From the IMG/VR virus record IMGVR_UViG_3300043464_002149: a stretch of 64,000 nucleotides of DNA, one strand, 5' to 3'. A program made the translations under genes and the position numbers. Below are positions 7,041 to 47,398 of the stretch, one piece after another. A model generated the notes under the pieces. The model had not been told where the DNA came from and did not search any database. It saw only the letters and a program-made list of their open reading frames with translations. The stretch's first letter is position 1; the number at the start of each line of letters is the position of its first letter. The stretch is from a virus (Duplodnaviria > Caudoviricetes).

Positions 7041-7553
7041 TTAAACGCCTCTAAATTCTTGATCCTGTGCTATTGCACAAGTGATTGTCCTGTAATATGG
7101 TTTATAACCAAATAAATGATGTGAGTTATCTGAAGTAACTTTACCATCATTTGTTACAGTATAATATCTTATTTTATTTTCTGATTCTGGATAACCAATA
7201 TAATCACCATATTTTATATCCACGCCAAGATCTTCTAAATGTCTTATATAAACAGATAAAATTAAATTACCAGGTTCAAGGTATCTTAACATACCACCTT
7301 TATAACTTGAATTTTTAGGTGCCTCGACCTTAACCAAAGCATTAAACTCAATTGGTGGAAAATATTTGATTTCATCTTGACCAACTTCACCATAAACATC
7401 ATCTTTATCCGTCTTTTGTCTATCAACTCTATAAAGAACCAATTTTTGATTTATATCGCCATGCAAATATTCTTGACCTATCTGAATTTGTAAATTAAAG
7501 TCCTCATCAGAAAAGAATTTACTTAAACGGGTTATTGGTAGTTTATTGCTCAT
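7041..7553 (-). CDS. neck / head-closure protein (gp14-like)
   Basis: DDVYGE motif, LYRVD, YGDYIGY; synteny with the tail terminator and neck genes. Confidence 0.55.
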   Translation of the reverse strand: MSNKLPITRLSKFFSDEDFNLQIQIGQEYLHGDINQKLVLYRVDRQKTDKDDVYGEVGQDEIKYFPPIEFNALVKVEAPKNSSYKGGMLRYLEPGNLILSVYIRHLEDLGVDIKYGDYIGYPESENKIRYYTVTNDGKVTSDNSHHLFGYKPYYRTITCAIAQDQEFRGV

Positions 7554-7605
7554 AATAGTATAAATAGTTTATAAAGTATTTAGAATTACCTATATTATAT
7601 ACTAT

Positions 7606-9357
7606 ATGGAAACCAAAATACCAGAAATAGTTGCGAGAGAGATACTTTTTTCATATGCGGGCTCTAATAACCATCTTTTAGATTTAAAAAGAAAGATTTT
7701 ACAGCTCAAGAATTATTCTTTAAGTAGAACTCAAGCAGATTATATTATAAAATATGAAAAGGTAATACCCAAAGTAGCTAGAAAGTGGGTTAAATTATTT
7801 TCTTCTTTTTCAGAAAAACTGAGAGAAGACAGATTATTACCAAACGCTCCTGAACAGATTTGGGTAGAAAAATTATTGTGTGAGACGGATAAAGCTTATC
7901 ATATTTGGGGGAAAATAATTGAGGCAGATAATTTACACGCATTCTGGATGCCTAAAATGGCGATTGTTCCAGAAGAGAAAAAACTAAACAGAACTATTGA
8001 TTATAGCCCTTATGATAAAAGACCACCAATGGGTCATCAAAAAGAGGCTATCGAAAAACTATTAGCTAATGATAAGTTTATTCTTGCCGATGATATGGGT
8101 CTAGGTAAAACAACATCAGCGGTAATTGCGGCACTAGAAAGTGGGGCTAAAAAAATATTGATTGTTTGCCCTGCTACTTTAAAGATAAACTGGGAAAGGG
8201 AAATTAAAAATTATACCGATAGAAGAATCTTACTTATTGAAGGAAGAAAGTGGGGGTCTACTTTTGATTTTTATATTATCAACTATGATATCTTAAAGAA
8301 TTTTCACACAACTGAAAAAAGTGAAGATAGCGAAGCATATCAATTAATTGCTAATAATGGATTTGATTTAGCAATAGTAGATGAAGCTCACTATATCTCT
8401 AACGCAACAGCACAGAGAACAAAAATATTAAATGATATTTTAGGAACAATACCAAAGGTTTGGTTATTAACTGGTACACCGATGACGTCAAGACCAATAA
8501 ATTATTACAACCTTTTAAAAATTGTTGAATCCCCTTTGGCATTGAATTGGCAAAGTTATGTCTTTAGATATTGTGCCGGTTATCAATTTAGAGTTGGTAA
8601 TAGAAAAGTTTGGAACACAAGTGGAGCGTCAAATCTAGATGAATTAAGGGAAAAGACTAAGAATCTTGTTTTAAGAAGAATGAAGACCGATATTTTAGAT
8701 TTACCGGAAAAGATTATTACACCGGTTTATTTAGAACTTCAAAGTAAATTCTATGATAATGAATTAGAAGACTTTATAAGAATTTCTTCTGAAAACAAAC
8801 AAAAAGAAAGTATCTCTGTTACTCTTAATCGTTTAATGAATATTAGACAATTAATTGCTGTAGAAAAAGTACCATATACTTGTGAACTTATAGATAAGTT
8901 TATTGAACAAAATAAAAAGGTAATTGTCTTCACTAATTTTACCTCAAGTTTAGATCTACTTCACGAAAAGTATAAAAAGAATTCTGTTGTTCTTGATGGT
9001 AGGATGAGTAAAGAAAAAAGACAGGAAAGCGTAGATAAGTTTCAGACAAATGATAAAATAAAAGTTTTCATATCCAACATCATTGCTGGTGGTGTAGGTA
9101 TCACTTTAACGGCCGCTGAAGGGGTTATAATGAACGATTTGTCATTTGTACCTGCTCACCATTCACAAGCCGAAGATAGAGCTTATAGACACGGTCAAAC
9201 AAAAAGTGTTTTAGTCTATTATCCCGTTTTTGAAAATACTATCGAGATTCAAGTTTATAATATCTTACAAAAAAAGAAAAACATCATCGATCAAGTTATG
9301 GGGGATGGTGAATACGGTGATACGTTTGCTAGTGAATTACTTAAAAACATAATATAG
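7606..9357 (+). CDS. SNF2-family (SMARCAL1/HARP-like) helicase/ATPase
   Basis: LADDMGLGKT (motif I), DEAH, LTGTP, QAEDRAYRHGQ (motif VI). Confidence 0.9.
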   Translation: METKIPEIVAREILFSYAGSNNHLLDLKRKILQLKNYSLSRTQADYIIKYEKVIPKVARKWVKLFSSFSEKLREDRLLPNAPEQIWVEKLLCETDKAYHIWGKIIEADNLHAFWMPKMAIVPEEKKLNRTIDYSPYDKRPPMGHQKEAIEKLLANDKFILADDMGLGKTTSAVIAALESGAKKILIVCPATLKINWEREIKNYTDRRILLIEGRKWGSTFDFYIINYDILKNFHTTEKSEDSEAYQLIANNGFDLAIVDEAHYISNATAQRTKILNDILGTIPKVWLLTGTPMTSRPINYYNLLKIVESPLALNWQSYVFRYCAGYQFRVGNRKVWNTSGASNLDELREKTKNLVLRRMKTDILDLPEKIITPVYLELQSKFYDNELEDFIRISSENKQKESISVTLNRLMNIRQLIAVEKVPYTCELIDKFIEQNKKVIVFTNFTSSLDLLHEKYKKNSVVLDGRMSKEKRQESVDKFQTNDKIKVFISNIIAGGVGITLTAAEGVIMNDLSFVPAHHSQAEDRAYRHGQTKSVLVYYPVFENTIEIQVYNILQKKKNIIDQVMGDGEYGDTFASELLKNII

Positions 9358-9398
9358 TTTTATCTATAATCTGGTATTTATTACTAAAAGCCATTTTA

Positions 9399-45561: not shown

Positions 45562-45593
45562 CTATTCTATTTAATCTAATTAATTTTTAAGGA

Positions 45594-47387
45594 TTAATCA
45601 ACCCTTTTTTTTGACCCAAATAACCAAGAATATTGTGTGTACTGTTCCTTAGCTGGTATATTTGATGTTGATGATTTTGCATAAGGAGAACTGTCAACTT
45701 GCATCATACCAACTTGATCAAAAGATGACCCGTATGAATAAGCGGTATTTTGTGGCGCCTCATACGTTCTTTCAGACATAACCCAAGATTCTAACATTGC
45801 TTTATTTTGTTGTTCATTTCGTTTTAATTGTGTAAAAGAAATATCACCAACATACATTGCAATAGCCATACTCATAATTCCATCATCATGAGCTCCCTTC
45901 ATGTGGTTAGGTTTACCATTTATGTAAACAAATGTGTTTAGTTCATTTAATAACCTATGTGATCTAATGATGAAATCATGTCTTAATTGTTCTTCAAAAC
46001 ATGATACAATTTGTGTTCTCTTATTATTGAAATTTATTCCAGGTATTTTTTCTAAAGCTTTATGGTTATATTCCCACATATTTTTAGTGTTAACACCATC
46101 AATAAATAAATCTTTATAATTCATTTCTTGTAGCTTTCTTGATGTTGCTACACCCATACCCCCAGTAATATCAATAACAATAAACGCATTATATAATACA
46201 CCCCATTTATATGCAATAGAGGCTAAATCGTCTGGTGGTATTTTACCTATGTATTCTAATACCTGTTCTCTATCATCAAAATCAATAATATTGATTGCGG
46301 AAAAATCTTCACTATCACCTCTACTAACGTCAACACCCATAATATATCTATGCCCCTCTAATGGTTCTTTCCATTGCCATAAAGTACCTTGCATATATTT
46401 CTCATTAGGTGCTTTAACCATTGTCTTGGCTATTTTCTCCATAGTTTCCGAAGGTATAACACTATCACCCGATCCTAAGAAATCACATTCAAGTTCTTGA
46501 GCAATTTTTCTCTTATCATACTTGAATTTTTTTGACATAGATTCGAACCAACTTGAATATGGTTGATACCCTTCATCCATGTATTGAGCATATTTTGTTA
46601 AATCATATTCTGGATCATTTAATGTTATTTCATCATCATTATATTGTTCTCTATTCAACATATAATGTACAATATCTGGGACTTTTAACCATTTTAGATC
46701 TTTAGTATAACGTGGATCTTTAAACCATCTTAAATCTGTAATATGAAAGTCGTTAATACCTCTTATTGCTTGTTCATATACACCATAATAAATTGGATCG
46801 TAACCGTTTGGTGTTGAAATCAATATAATCTTACCACCGGTAGATAAAGATGCCATAGAAGCCGCCCAGAAGTCTTCACCAGCCTCAATATACGCGGCCT
46901 CATCAAATACAAGTACTGTTGGTGTAAAACCACGAAGAGCATCTGTAGATGTTGCAACGGCTTTTACCTCAGATCCATTATTTAATCTAAATCTACTTTC
47001 CGAGTTTTTATCAGGTGAGAATCCCACATTAATCCATTCTGGCCACTGATCTAAAAAATGACGAACTTTATTAGCCATTTCAATGGCTGTGTCTCTTTTG
47101 TTAGCAATAATCAATACTCTCTCCGGATTTTCTGGTTTTGCTAATTGTAGTTTTTTCGATAACCATGCAGCTGTTACTGTTGTAACACCAGCCTGTCTAT
47201 ACTTTCTAGTGATATTTTCGTTATATGTTTCGTAATCTTTTAATAATTGAATCTGATCTGGAAACAATTCGAGCGGAACATATTTCTTTTGAGTATTATC
47301 ATATGTTTGTAGATATGTTCTCAACGCATATGGTGTATCTTTAATTACACGTGCATACTCTTTTAGTTGTTCTATTTTGTTGTTCAT
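45594..47387 (-). CDS. terL: terminase large subunit (T4 gp17-like)
   Basis: RKYRQAGVTT (deviant Walker A), VFDEAAYI, ISTPNG, MGVDVSRG, HDDGIMS. Confidence 0.93.
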   Translation of the reverse strand: MNNKIEQLKEYARVIKDTPYALRTYLQTYDNTQKKYVPLELFPDQIQLLKDYETYNENITRKYRQAGVTTVTAAWLSKKLQLAKPENPERVLIIANKRDTAIEMANKVRHFLDQWPEWINVGFSPDKNSESRFRLNNGSEVKAVATSTDALRGFTPTVLVFDEAAYIEAGEDFWAASMASLSTGGKIILISTPNGYDPIYYGVYEQAIRGINDFHITDLRWFKDPRYTKDLKWLKVPDIVHYMLNREQYNDDEITLNDPEYDLTKYAQYMDEGYQPYSSWFESMSKKFKYDKRKIAQELECDFLGSGDSVIPSETMEKIAKTMVKAPNEKYMQGTLWQWKEPLEGHRYIMGVDVSRGDSEDFSAINIIDFDDREQVLEYIGKIPPDDLASIAYKWGVLYNAFIVIDITGGMGVATSRKLQEMNYKDLFIDGVNTKNMWEYNHKALEKIPGINFNNKRTQIVSCFEEQLRHDFIIRSHRLLNELNTFVYINGKPNHMKGAHDDGIMSMAIAMYVGDISFTQLKRNEQQNKAMLESWVMSERTYEAPQNTAYSYGSSFDQVGMMQVDSSPYAKSSTSNIPAKEQYTQYSWLFGSKKRVD

Positions 47388-47391
47388 ATAT

Positions 47392-47398
47392 ATAAATA
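47392..47398 (-). promoter_or_regulatory. candidate late promoter TATTTAT, 4 nt upstream of the terL ATG
   Basis: Located between a terminator hairpin and the ATG. Confidence 0.55.

What the first reader, a model, noticed from the sequence alone, without database searches (positions are those of the whole stretch)
7551..47398. Many late genes appear leaderless or nearly so, in a phage that encodes its own bS21
Seen: the gap from TATTTAT to ATG is only 4-6 nt for terL (4), the 19544 gene (4), portal (5), rpsU (5), 31553 (5), 36915 (5), the gp14-like neck gene (6), 21006 (6) and 23978 (6). The bulk genes (sheath, tube, scaffold, protease) have 20-37 nt gaps. Established: T4 late transcription starts a few nt downstream of the TATA element, Bacteroidota translate largely without SD pairing, and bS21 sits at the mRNA exit channel. 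Inference: two classes of late mRNA, leaderless for lower-stoichiometry parts and A-rich-leadered for abundant ones, possibly tuned by phage bS21. I know of no description of this link.
Basis: inference. Interest (0 to 1): 0.8.

Follow-up and report, generated by a model that had tools for sequence, protein, structure and literature searches.

The report
Phage late promoter abutting start codons
A lake phage of Bacteroidota that carries its own ribosomal protein bS21 has a conserved late-promoter box, TATTTAT, which in nine gene families sits only 4-6 bases before the start codon, so these messages probably have no leader; a role for bS21 in this is untested.

Summary
TATTTAT is the most enriched 7-mer upstream of genes: 19 of 68 upstream regions against 0.9 expected. 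It always lies on the sense strand. Nine of 22 sites lie 4-6 nt before the ATG (P about 4e-5).

Across the window plus 177 related loci, 281 of 1,217 unique motif contexts have a 4-6 nt gap. Gaps of 0-3 and 7-10 nt are nearly empty. Each gene family keeps its class.

In leadered genes, position 6 after the motif is A in 87% of contexts, usually after T. This implies a start site there and puts the box at -12 to -5, like the host sigma-A -7 box. In short-gap genes the A of the ATG occupies position 5-7 and follows a pyrimidine in 90% of contexts. terL is walled off upstream by a covarying terminator.

Best reading (about 0.6): a phage late promoter, with about 40% of late units leaderless. No transcription-start data exist. 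The bS21 link and the stoichiometry rule remain speculation. In E. coli it is loss of bS21 that favours leaderless mRNA.

First readers of this scan noted the same motif in at least eight other genomes.

The parts
47392..47398 (-). Late box TATTTAT, 4 nt before the terL ATG (47387). Short-gap class.
   Evidence: Orthologues have gap 4-6 in 44 of 48 unique contexts.
47402..47425 (-). Intrinsic terminator hairpin of the upstream unit. Its T-run runs into the terL late box.
   Evidence: z = -2.95. All 41 unique relatives have a hairpin here with different, compensating stems.
45555..45561 (-). Late box, 5 nt before the portal ATG (45549).
   Evidence: Present in all 80 related loci at gap 4-6 while the flanking spacer diverges.
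42795..42801 (+). Late box, 5 nt before the rpsU ATG (42807).
   Evidence: Gap 4-6 in 12 of 17 exact-motif contexts. Other relatives carry TACTTAT or TAATTAT at the same distance, or a host-type TATATTTG box further upstream.
42807..42998 (+). Phage bS21 gene (63 aa). It is the lone plus-strand gene among minus-strand head genes.
   Evidence: Pfam Ribosomal_S21, 41 bits against a cut-off of 27. Best PDB match is F. johnsoniae bS21 (7JIL), aligned from residue 1, with Tyr54 kept.
42981..43015 (.). Bidirectional hairpin at the convergent ends of rpsU and gene 42995-43747. It makes rpsU a single-gene unit.
36903..36909 (+). Late box, 5 nt before ATG 36915 (147 aa, unknown function).
   Evidence: 54 of 58 contexts have gap 4-5.
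31541..31547 (+). Late box, 5 nt before ATG 31553 (122 aa, unknown function, directly after the sigma gene).
   Evidence: 42 of 47 contexts have gap 4-5.
30839..31537 (+). Candidate late sigma factor, gp55-like, 232 aa.
   Evidence: Pfam Sigma70_r2, E = 7e-5, just under the cut-off. PHROG late sigma, E = 5e-4. Best PDB match is T4 gp55, E = 0.013 alone and 0.0037 with a profile.
23965..23971 (+). Late box, 6 nt before ATG 23978 (183 aa, unknown function).
   Evidence: 25 of 28 contexts have gap 4 or 6.
21013..21019 (-). Late box, 6 nt before ATG 21006, the likely true start of ORF 19558-21027.
   Evidence: 32 of 37 contexts have gap 5-6.
19549..19555 (-). Late box, 4 nt before ATG 19544 (193 aa, unknown function).
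   Evidence: 6 of 7 contexts have gap 4.
7560..7566 (-). Late box, 6 nt before ATG 7553 (170 aa). This is the first gene of a leftward unit in a 52-nt divergent spacer.
   Evidence: 6 of 9 contexts have gap 5-6.
41480..41486 (-). Late box of the scaffold and major-capsid unit. Leader about 15 nt; predicted start at 41474.
   Evidence: Orthologue gaps are 18-28.
42263..42269 (-). Late box of the prohead protease. Gap 23; predicted start at 42257.
5560..5566 (-). Late box of the tail sheath gene (2679-5522). Gap 37; predicted start at 5554.
2399..2405 (-). Late box of the tail tube gene (1874-2362). Gap 36.
21037..21043 (+). Late box of gene 21060, gap 16. It lies back to back with the 21013 box.
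   Evidence: Orthologue gaps are 14-17.
35508..35514 (+). Late box of gene 35526, gap 11. This is the shortest leadered class.
   Evidence: Orthologue gaps are 11-15.
9375..9381 (+). Late box of gene 9399 (weak head-tail adaptor match), gap 17.
16267..16273 (-). Late box of gene 14145-16244 (699 aa, unknown function), gap 22.
51171..51177 (-). Late box of gene 50087-51136, gap 34.
59898..59904 (-). Late box of gene 59087-59881, gap 16, directly after a terminator hairpin.

Best explanation
TATTTAT followed by A or T is the late promoter of this phage lineage. It is a single -10-like box, probably read by the phage's own gp55-like sigma (30839-31537) bound to the host RNA polymerase core. Transcription starts at an A that follows a pyrimidine, about 6 nt (range 5-7) after the 7-mer. 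That puts the 8-mer at -12 to -5, the position of the host sigma-A '-7 box' TAnnTTTG. In nine gene families of this window that A is the A of the start codon: terL, portal, rpsU, 7553, 19544, 21006, 23978, 31553 and 36915. Their own transcripts would therefore begin 5'-AUG and be leaderless. The other late units (sheath, tube, scaffold with capsid, protease and others) carry A-rich leaders of roughly 5-40 nt.

Shown here: the motif, its strand, its conservation, the two spacing classes, and that the adjacent ATGs are translated.

Inferred: the start-site position, the sigma assignment, and that these 5'-AUG messages are translated as such.
For: 1. Enrichment and strand.
2. The box is invariant at the portal start in all 80 related loci while the surrounding spacer diverges.
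3. There is a sharp 4-6 nt peak with empty shoulders, and controls are flat. This is the pattern expected if leaders of 1-5 nt are selected against.
4. Class is conserved per gene family.
5. In 335 leadered contexts, position 6 after the box is A in 87%, against 39-64% A at the other positions downstream of the box. Position 5 is T in 54%, against 22-28% T at positions 1-4. In the window, 11 of 13 leadered sites have A at position 6. This matches the -12 to -5 position of the F. psychrophilum -7 box (PMC9723704).
6. The base before the ATG is a pyrimidine in 90% of short-gap contexts and a purine in 78% of leadered ones.
7. At gap 4-6 there are 281 ATG starts against 8 GTG or TTG.
8. terL has a terminator 1-3 nt upstream of the box in 40 of the 41 unique relatives (about 10 nt further upstream in L054), with compensating stem changes. 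Its ATG can therefore reach mRNA only from this promoter or by terminator read-through.
9. rpsU, 7553 and 21006 are first genes of divergent units.
10. In codons 2-25, 46-66% of codon differences are synonymous, and phage bS21 aligns with host bS21 from residue 1. The ATGs are therefore the real starts.
11. The best PDB match of the sigma candidate is T4 gp55.
12. The cultured Flavobacterium phage immuto has the same top upstream 7-mer.
13. Flavobacteria do translate some leaderless mRNAs: 5.5% of mapped transcripts (PMC9723704).
Against: - There are no start-site data. Only assembled metatranscriptome contigs were available, and they cannot show RNA 5' ends.
- The commonest gap is 4. That puts the A of the ATG at position 5, one nucleotide closer than the modal A at position 6 of leadered units.
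- With T4 geometry (box at -13 to -6; PMC2988020, PMC7892883) a start would fall on the T or G of the ATG for gaps of 5 or 4.
- One RNA-library contig spans the terL end, the portal box and the portal ATG (45486-45698). Portal may therefore also be read from a bicistronic message, or the contig may be DNA carry-over.
- Four short-gap genes (19544, 31553, 36915, 23978) sit 13-39 nt behind a co-directional gene and could be served by read-through.
- Leaderless mRNAs are rare in Bacteroidota (3.7-5.5%).
- The sigma homology is weak, and the AlphaFold model was too poor to use.
Confidence: 0.6

Rival explanations
1. The box is a late promoter, but the short-gap genes are translated mainly as internal cistrons of read-through messages. 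The tight spacing reflects genome packing. It may also reflect promoters that chiefly serve genes further downstream. The 5'-AUG transcripts would be rare or untranslated.
For: - One RNA-library contig bridges the terL end and the portal start.
- Genes 19544, 31553 and 36915 have spacers of only 13-15 nt, which the box almost fills.
- Leaderless mRNAs are rare in the host phylum.
Against: - Packing does not explain why gaps of 0-3 and 7-10 nt are avoided.
- It does not explain the pyrimidine before the ATG.
- terL lies behind a conserved terminator.
- rpsU, 7553 and 21006 head divergent units with no co-directional gene upstream.
Confidence: 0.17
2. In the short-gap class the box acts at the RNA level. 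UAUUUAU at -11 to -5, the place of a Shine-Dalgarno sequence, would be either a ribosome-binding or processing signal. It might be read by the ribosome carrying phage bS21, whose N-terminal helix differs from the host's.
For: - A gap of 4-6 nt equals typical Shine-Dalgarno-to-AUG spacing.
- Chen et al. report that phage bS21 diverges from host bS21 where mRNA would bind.
Against: - The same box occurs 11-45 nt from the ATG in leadered families, with distances that drift between relatives.
- At terL the upstream terminator ends just before the box, so the box would seldom be in RNA.
- The A at position 6 in leadered units points to a DNA-level start signal.
[quoted passage not shown] This last point is my own inspection, not a computation.
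Confidence: 0.07
3. One reading: phage bS21 tunes ribosomes between leaderless and leadered late messages, with leaderless used for low-copy parts and leadered for abundant parts.
For: - rpsU itself carries the late box at gap 5 in this window and its close relatives.
- Flavobacterium phage immuto yielded no S21 match and has leadered terL (gap 21) and portal (gap 19) behind the same box.
- Relative L018 lacks rpsU at the conserved site, and its terL lacks the canonical box.
- terL and portal are low-copy parts. Sheath, tube and scaffold are abundant.
Against: - These are single contrasts without phylogenetic replication.
- L018 keeps the 5-nt gap at portal.
- Immuto has a few short-gap sites of its own.
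- Most short-gap genes have unknown function, and the protease is leadered.
- In E. coli it is loss of bS21 that favours leaderless mRNA.
- Phage bS21 keeps Tyr54, so it probably sequesters the anti-SD as the host protein does.
Confidence: 0.12
4. The real element is the T4 late promoter TATAAATA on the opposite strand, firing away from the gene.
For: TATTTATA is the exact reverse complement of TATAAATA. With T at position 8 the complement is AATAAATA, the commonest T4 variant.
Against: - Nearly all of the 27 intergenic copies are sense to the next gene start. None is antisense within a one-directional gene block.
- ATAAATA is not enriched in sense upstream regions and shows no distance peak.
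- At terL an opposite-strand start would run straight into a hairpin and then antisense into a gene.
Confidence: 0.02

Closest known systems
Thermus phages phiYS40 and Lalka27a: leaderless middle and late mRNAs
   Same: A phage-specific -10-type late element sits directly before start codons. Most late transcripts begin at the initiator codon. For phiYS40 a shift of the host initiation apparatus (IF2 up, IF3 down) in favour of leaderless mRNA is reported.
   Different: Those hosts (Deinococcus-Thermus) use leaderless mRNAs widely. Bacteroidota rarely do (3.7-5.5%). Here only about 40% of late units are of this type, the box differs, and nothing has been mapped experimentally.
T4 late promoter TATAAATA with gp55, gp33 and gp45
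   Same: A single 8-bp A/T box at the -10 position, a small phage sigma whose best PDB match is gp55, use before structural genes, and transcripts on both strands.
   Different: The sequence is TATTTAT followed by A or T: the two central bases differ, and it is the reverse complement of the T4 box. The inferred position is -12 to -5 rather than -13 to -6. gp33 was sought only in gene 31553 (no match); a gp45 role was not examined. T4 late mRNAs carry Shine-Dalgarno leaders (my own knowledge).
Bacteroidota sigma-A '-7 box' TAnnTTTG
   Same: Same inferred position (-12 to -5). T at -12, A at -11, T at -8 and T at -6 are shared.
   Different: A instead of T at -7, and A or T instead of G at -5. 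The exact host consensus precedes no gene in this window, though several relatives have TATATTTG before rpsU.
bS21-encoding freshwater phages of Chen et al. 2022 (ISME Commun, PMC9723584)
   Same: This is the same lineage. bS21 lies on the opposite strand inside the terL, portal, protease and capsid block. Relatives reach 250-335 kb, the sources are lakes, and capsid RNA is abundant.
   Different: That paper does not mention promoters, motifs, UTRs, sigma factors or leaderless mRNA.
Lambda cI mRNA from pRM, and E. coli ribosomes lacking uS2 and bS21
   Same: A phage leaderless message whose translation depends on the bS21 status of the ribosome.
   Different: There the absence of bS21 helps. 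In Bacteroidia, bS21 sequesters the anti-SD (abstracts), so the sign of any effect here is unknown.

Membership tests
Leaderless mRNA genes | The primary 5' end coincides with the first base of the start codon. | not testable with these tools
   Only assembled RNA contigs were available. No places where many molecules begin were reported.
Leaderless mRNA genes | A -10-type promoter element at a fixed short distance upstream of the start codon. | tested here: met
   Gap 4-6 nt in 281 of 1,217 unique contexts, with empty shoulders. The class is conserved in nine families.
Leaderless mRNA genes | AUG, rather than GUG or UUG, as the 5'-terminal start codon. | tested here: met
   281 ATG against 8 GTG or TTG at gap 4-6. 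The genome is AT-rich, so this test is weak.
T4-type late promoter (gp55 class) | Consensus TATAAATA on the non-template strand. | tested here: not met
   The box is TATTTAT followed by A or T. ATAAATA is not enriched in the sense orientation.
T4-type late promoter (gp55 class) | A single -10-like box with no conserved -35 element. | tested here: inconclusive
   Across families only A-richness appears upstream of the box. The portal spacer keeps a TTAGATTA or TTATATTA word 10 nt upstream.
T4-type late promoter (gp55 class) | A phage-encoded gp55-family sigma. | tested here: inconclusive
   T4 gp55 is the best PDB match, but weakly (E = 0.013 and 0.0037). Sigma70_r2 scores 22.9 bits, under the cut-off of 24. 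The model has pLDDT 56.
T4-type late promoter (gp55 class) | Dependence on the gp33 co-activator and the gp45 sliding clamp. | not tested
   Gene 31553 (122 aa, next to the sigma gene) gave no gp33 match. No clamp was sought.
Ribosomal protein bS21 (PF01165) | Scores above the Pfam gathering threshold. | tested here: met
   41 bits against a cut-off of 27.
Ribosomal protein bS21 (PF01165) | Bacteroidia-type Tyr54 that stacks on the anti-SD. | tested here: met
   Tyr at position 54 in the alignment to F. johnsoniae bS21, PDB 7JIL. Its role is taken from PMC9723584.
bS21-phage group of Chen et al. 2022 | bS21 lies on the opposite strand inside the conserved terL, portal, protease and capsid block. 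| tested here: met
   68 of 80 portal loci hold rpsU, and 11 of the other 12 have 714 nt or less of sequence beyond the portal gene, too little to reach it.

The most novel reading that the evidence does not exclude
Phage bS21 replaces host bS21 late in infection. The phage gene has no Shine-Dalgarno sequence, so it would escape the host's autoregulation of rpsU. The replacement makes Bacteroidia ribosomes initiate efficiently on 5'-terminal AUGs. This gives the phage a private translation channel for about 40% of its late transcription units, bS21 itself included.
Probability: 0.1. Interest if true: 0.85.

Novelty: new variant of a known kind. Interest (0 to 1): 0.55.

Why it matters
[quoted passage not shown] The portal search alone found at least 597 relatives in IMG/VR, and capsid RNA is prominent in lake metatranscriptomes. 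Their gene-expression signals have not been described.

A defined late box gives three things:
- a predicted start site for each late unit;
- a way to sort late genes from other genes;
- corrected gene starts, such as 21006.

If the short-gap units are truly leaderless, about 40% of late units use an initiation mode that serves only 4-6% of host messages. That would make this lineage, and the cultured Flavobacterium phage immuto with the same box, a natural system for two questions. How do Shine-Dalgarno-blind Bacteroidia ribosomes choose start codons? What is a phage-encoded bS21 for?

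Tried and rejected
- **Start sites from public RNA.** The best four of the public metatranscriptome runs that hold part of the region were laid on 28000-47999. All are stored as contigs, so no RNA 5' ends could be read. Contigs from three runs end at 41376, inside the scaffold gene. I give this no weight.
- **Identifying the phage by DNA.** There is no near match among 50,697 phage records, and no whole genome is held for the window.
- **Consensus fold of the terL terminator.** RNAalifold on a MAFFT alignment returned no pairs because the stems were misaligned. 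The per-sequence folds were used instead.
- **Structure of the sigma candidate.** The model has pLDDT 56, too poor for a fold search, so none was run.
- **gp33-like role for gene 31553.** It matched only designed helical repeat proteins.
- **Host-type TAnnTTTG promoters.** None lies before a gene in this window.
- **Opposite-strand T4 promoter.** Rejected on strand bias.
- **Testing the bS21 link by comparison.** Three distant relatives are fragments, 19-26% complete. Immuto and L018 are single contrasts. Neither comparison is decisive.
- **Earlier descriptions.** Literature searches for the box or for late promoters of Flavobacterium phages found nothing relevant.
- **tRNA genes.** None in the window.

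Full report
**What the window is.**
It is 64 kb at 31% GC, taken from an uncultured lake myophage. DNA runs from at least 12 lake or freshwater studies hold most of the terL-to-capsid region. No phage record is a near match.

Minus-strand genes for terL (45594-47387), portal (43750-45549), prohead protease (41550-42239), a scaffold-position gene (40296-41459) and the major capsid protein (38520-40262) surround a lone plus-strand 63-codon gene. That gene scores 41 bits on Pfam Ribosomal_S21. It aligns from residue 1 with Flavobacterium johnsoniae bS21 (PDB 7JIL) and keeps Tyr54.

This is the layout of the bS21 phages of Chen et al. 2022 (PMC9723584). Relatives in IMG/VR number at least 597 by the portal search, on contigs up to 334 kb. 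That paper does not contain the words promoter, motif, UTR, sigma or leaderless.

- TATTTAT is not over-represented in the window as a whole: 44 copies against 51 expected.
- But 27 of the 44 lie in the 2,762 non-coding bases, and nearly all are on the strand of the next gene.
- It is by far the most enriched 7-mer in the 45 nt upstream of genes: 19 of 68 regions against 0.9 expected, p = 6e-19.
- If the box were placed uniformly within each intergenic spacer, 2.25 of the 22 sites would fall at gap 4-6. Nine do (P = 4e-5).

**Relatives.**
I fetched 177 related loci around the portal gene, the sigma-like gene and a 699-aa late gene.

- At the portal start the box is present in all 80 loci with a gap of 4-6, while the rest of the spacer diverges.
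- Over 2.79 Mb and 1,217 unique contexts, I measured the distance from the box to the next ATG that opens at least 55 codons. The counts are 0-3: 6; 4: 163; 5: 72; 6: 46; 7-10: 22. Beyond that there is a broad spread from 11 to 45 nt.
- Seven-mers of the same composition show no such peak, apart from shifted copies of the box itself.
- Class membership is a property of the gene family:

| Family | Contexts at gap 4-6 |
|---|---|
| 36915 | 54 of 58 |
| portal | 49 of 57 |
| terL | 44 of 48 |
| 31553 | 42 of 47 |
| 21006 | 32 of 37 |
| 23978 | 25 of 28 |
| rpsU | 12 of 17 |
| 7553 | 6 of 9 |
| 19544 | 6 of 7 |

- Leadered families drift instead: scaffold 18-28, protease 13-23, 21060 gene 14-17, 35526 gene 11-15, 50087 gene 12-40 (mostly 33-40).

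**The ATGs are real starts.**
They are the first start codons of their frames. N-termini are conserved from residue 1. In codons 2-25, 46-66% of codon differences are synonymous.

The upstream ATG is AGG, GGG or ACG in several relatives, and one relative has an in-frame stop between the two.

**Where transcription would start.**
In 335 leadered contexts, position 6 after the 7-mer is A in 87%, and position 5 is T in 54%. At the other positions downstream of the box A is 39-64%, and T at positions 1-4 is 22-28%. A pyrimidine followed by a purine at a fixed distance is the usual mark of a start site.

This places the 8-mer at -12 to -5, which is where the sigma-A -7 box TAnnTTTG lies in F. psychrophilum (PMC9723704). 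The T4 box lies at -13 to -6.

In the short-gap class the A of the ATG sits at position 5, 6 or 7. The base before it is a pyrimidine in 90% of contexts. Leadered ATGs are preceded by a purine in 78%. At gap 4, position 6 is the T of the ATG. So the A at position 6 is not a fixed requirement of the box. It behaves as a start nucleotide that can shift by one.

**Insulation.**
Upstream of terL a 10-bp hairpin with a T-run ends 3 nt before the box. All 41 unique relatives have a hairpin there, built from different and mutually compensating stems.

Transcripts from upstream should therefore stop before the box. terL must rely on its own promoter, only 4-6 nt from its ATG. rpsU, 7553 and 21006 head divergent units. 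rpsU also ends in a bidirectional hairpin, so it is a single-gene unit.

**The sigma.**
Gene 30839-31537 gives three weak but concordant signals: Sigma70_r2 at E = 7e-5, PHROG late sigma at E = 5e-4, and T4 gp55 as its best PDB match at E = 0.013, or 0.0037 with a profile. The AlphaFold model was too poor to use.

**Limits.**

- No start-site data exist. The RNA runs are contigs.
- One contig (45486-45698) crosses the portal box. This shows either read-through from terL or DNA carry-over.
- The modal gap of 4 is one nucleotide shorter than the modal start distance in leadered units.
- Leaderless mRNAs are rare in Bacteroidota: 3.7% of B. thetaiotaomicron 5' UTRs are under 10 nt, and 5.5% of F. 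psychrophilum transcripts are leaderless.

**The bS21 link.**
Nothing here tests it directly. Three observations bear on it.

- The cultured Flavobacterium phage immuto gave no S21 match. It uses the same box, in 11 of 56 upstream regions (p = 1.5e-10). Its terL and portal are leadered, with gaps of 21 and 19.
- Relative L018 lacks rpsU at the conserved site. Its terL lacks the canonical box, but its portal keeps a gap of 5.
- In E. coli, ribosomes lacking uS2 and bS21 favour leaderless lambda cI mRNA.

These are anecdotes. The stoichiometry rule fits terL and portal against sheath, tube and scaffold. It cannot be judged for six families of unknown function.

**Comparison and novelty.**
Leaderless late messages behind a phage-specific -10 box are known in Thermus phages phiYS40 and Lalka27a. 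Single-box late promoters read by a small sigma are known from T4.

What is new is the combination found here:

- a box that is the reverse complement of the T4 one;
- its position, which matches the Bacteroidota -7 box;
- a conserved split into leaderless-type and leadered late units;
- a widespread bS21-carrying lineage whose hosts seldom use leaderless mRNA.

First readers of this scan noted the same motif in at least eight other genomes. Those notes are unchecked and are not independent evidence.

Noticed in passing
window 5602-5807 (+): A 52-codon ORF (5649-5807) matches PHROG Arc-like repressor (E = 2e-4). Three tandem late boxes precede it on the plus strand, at 5602, 5614 and 5634. The last is 8 nt from the ATG. 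The ORF lies antisense between the sheath gene and gene 5804-7039.
   Followed up: partly
window 2386-2398, 5546-5559, 51158-51170 (-): The leaders of the sheath, tube and 50087 genes share AAGAATAA, beginning at the predicted start site (position 5-6 after the box). This looks like a common 5' end for the units with long leaders.
   Followed up: no
window 19558-21027 (-): The first ATG (21027) is probably not the start. Relatives support 21006, seven codons downstream.
   Followed up: yes
L049, L055, L065 and other loci, upstream of rpsU: In many relatives rpsU is preceded by a perfect host-type -7 box, TATATTTG, about 17 nt before the ATG, together with a variant late box (TACTTAT) at gap 5. 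More distant relatives have no late box at all. The timing of rpsU expression may differ between clades.
   Followed up: partly
L018:9387-10700 and L018:5657-5729: This close relative (portal 82% identical) has no rpsU between the 246-aa and 142-aa genes. Its terL is preceded by a terminator and then ATCTTTAAGACTT instead of the canonical box. The contig is only 12 kb, so rpsU could lie elsewhere in that genome.
   Followed up: partly
L178 (Flavobacterium phage vB_FspM_immuto_2-6A, NC_055915.1, 95000-144999): This cultured T4-like Flavobacterium phage shares TATTTAT as its top upstream 7-mer. All nine of its leadered sites have A at position 6 after the box. It would be a workable laboratory model for mapping the start site.
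   Followed up: partly
window 38005-41339: RNA-library contigs from four lake metatranscriptomes cover the capsid and scaffold genes at summed depths in the hundreds. Most other bins are under 10, and 5-165 in the two bins beside that block. Contigs also bridge the scaffold end and the capsid start, consistent with one scaffold-capsid message.
   Followed up: no
window 45563-45582 (-) and the portal loci: A conserved word, TTAGATTA or TTATATTA, lies 10 nt upstream of the portal late box in most relatives. It could be an upstream promoter element specific to this site.
   Followed up: no
window 59905-59935 (-): A terminator hairpin (AGGAGG...CCTCCT followed by a T-run) directly abuts the late box of gene 59087-59881. 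This is the same terminator-then-promoter layout as at terL, but with a 16-nt gap to the ATG.
   Followed up: no
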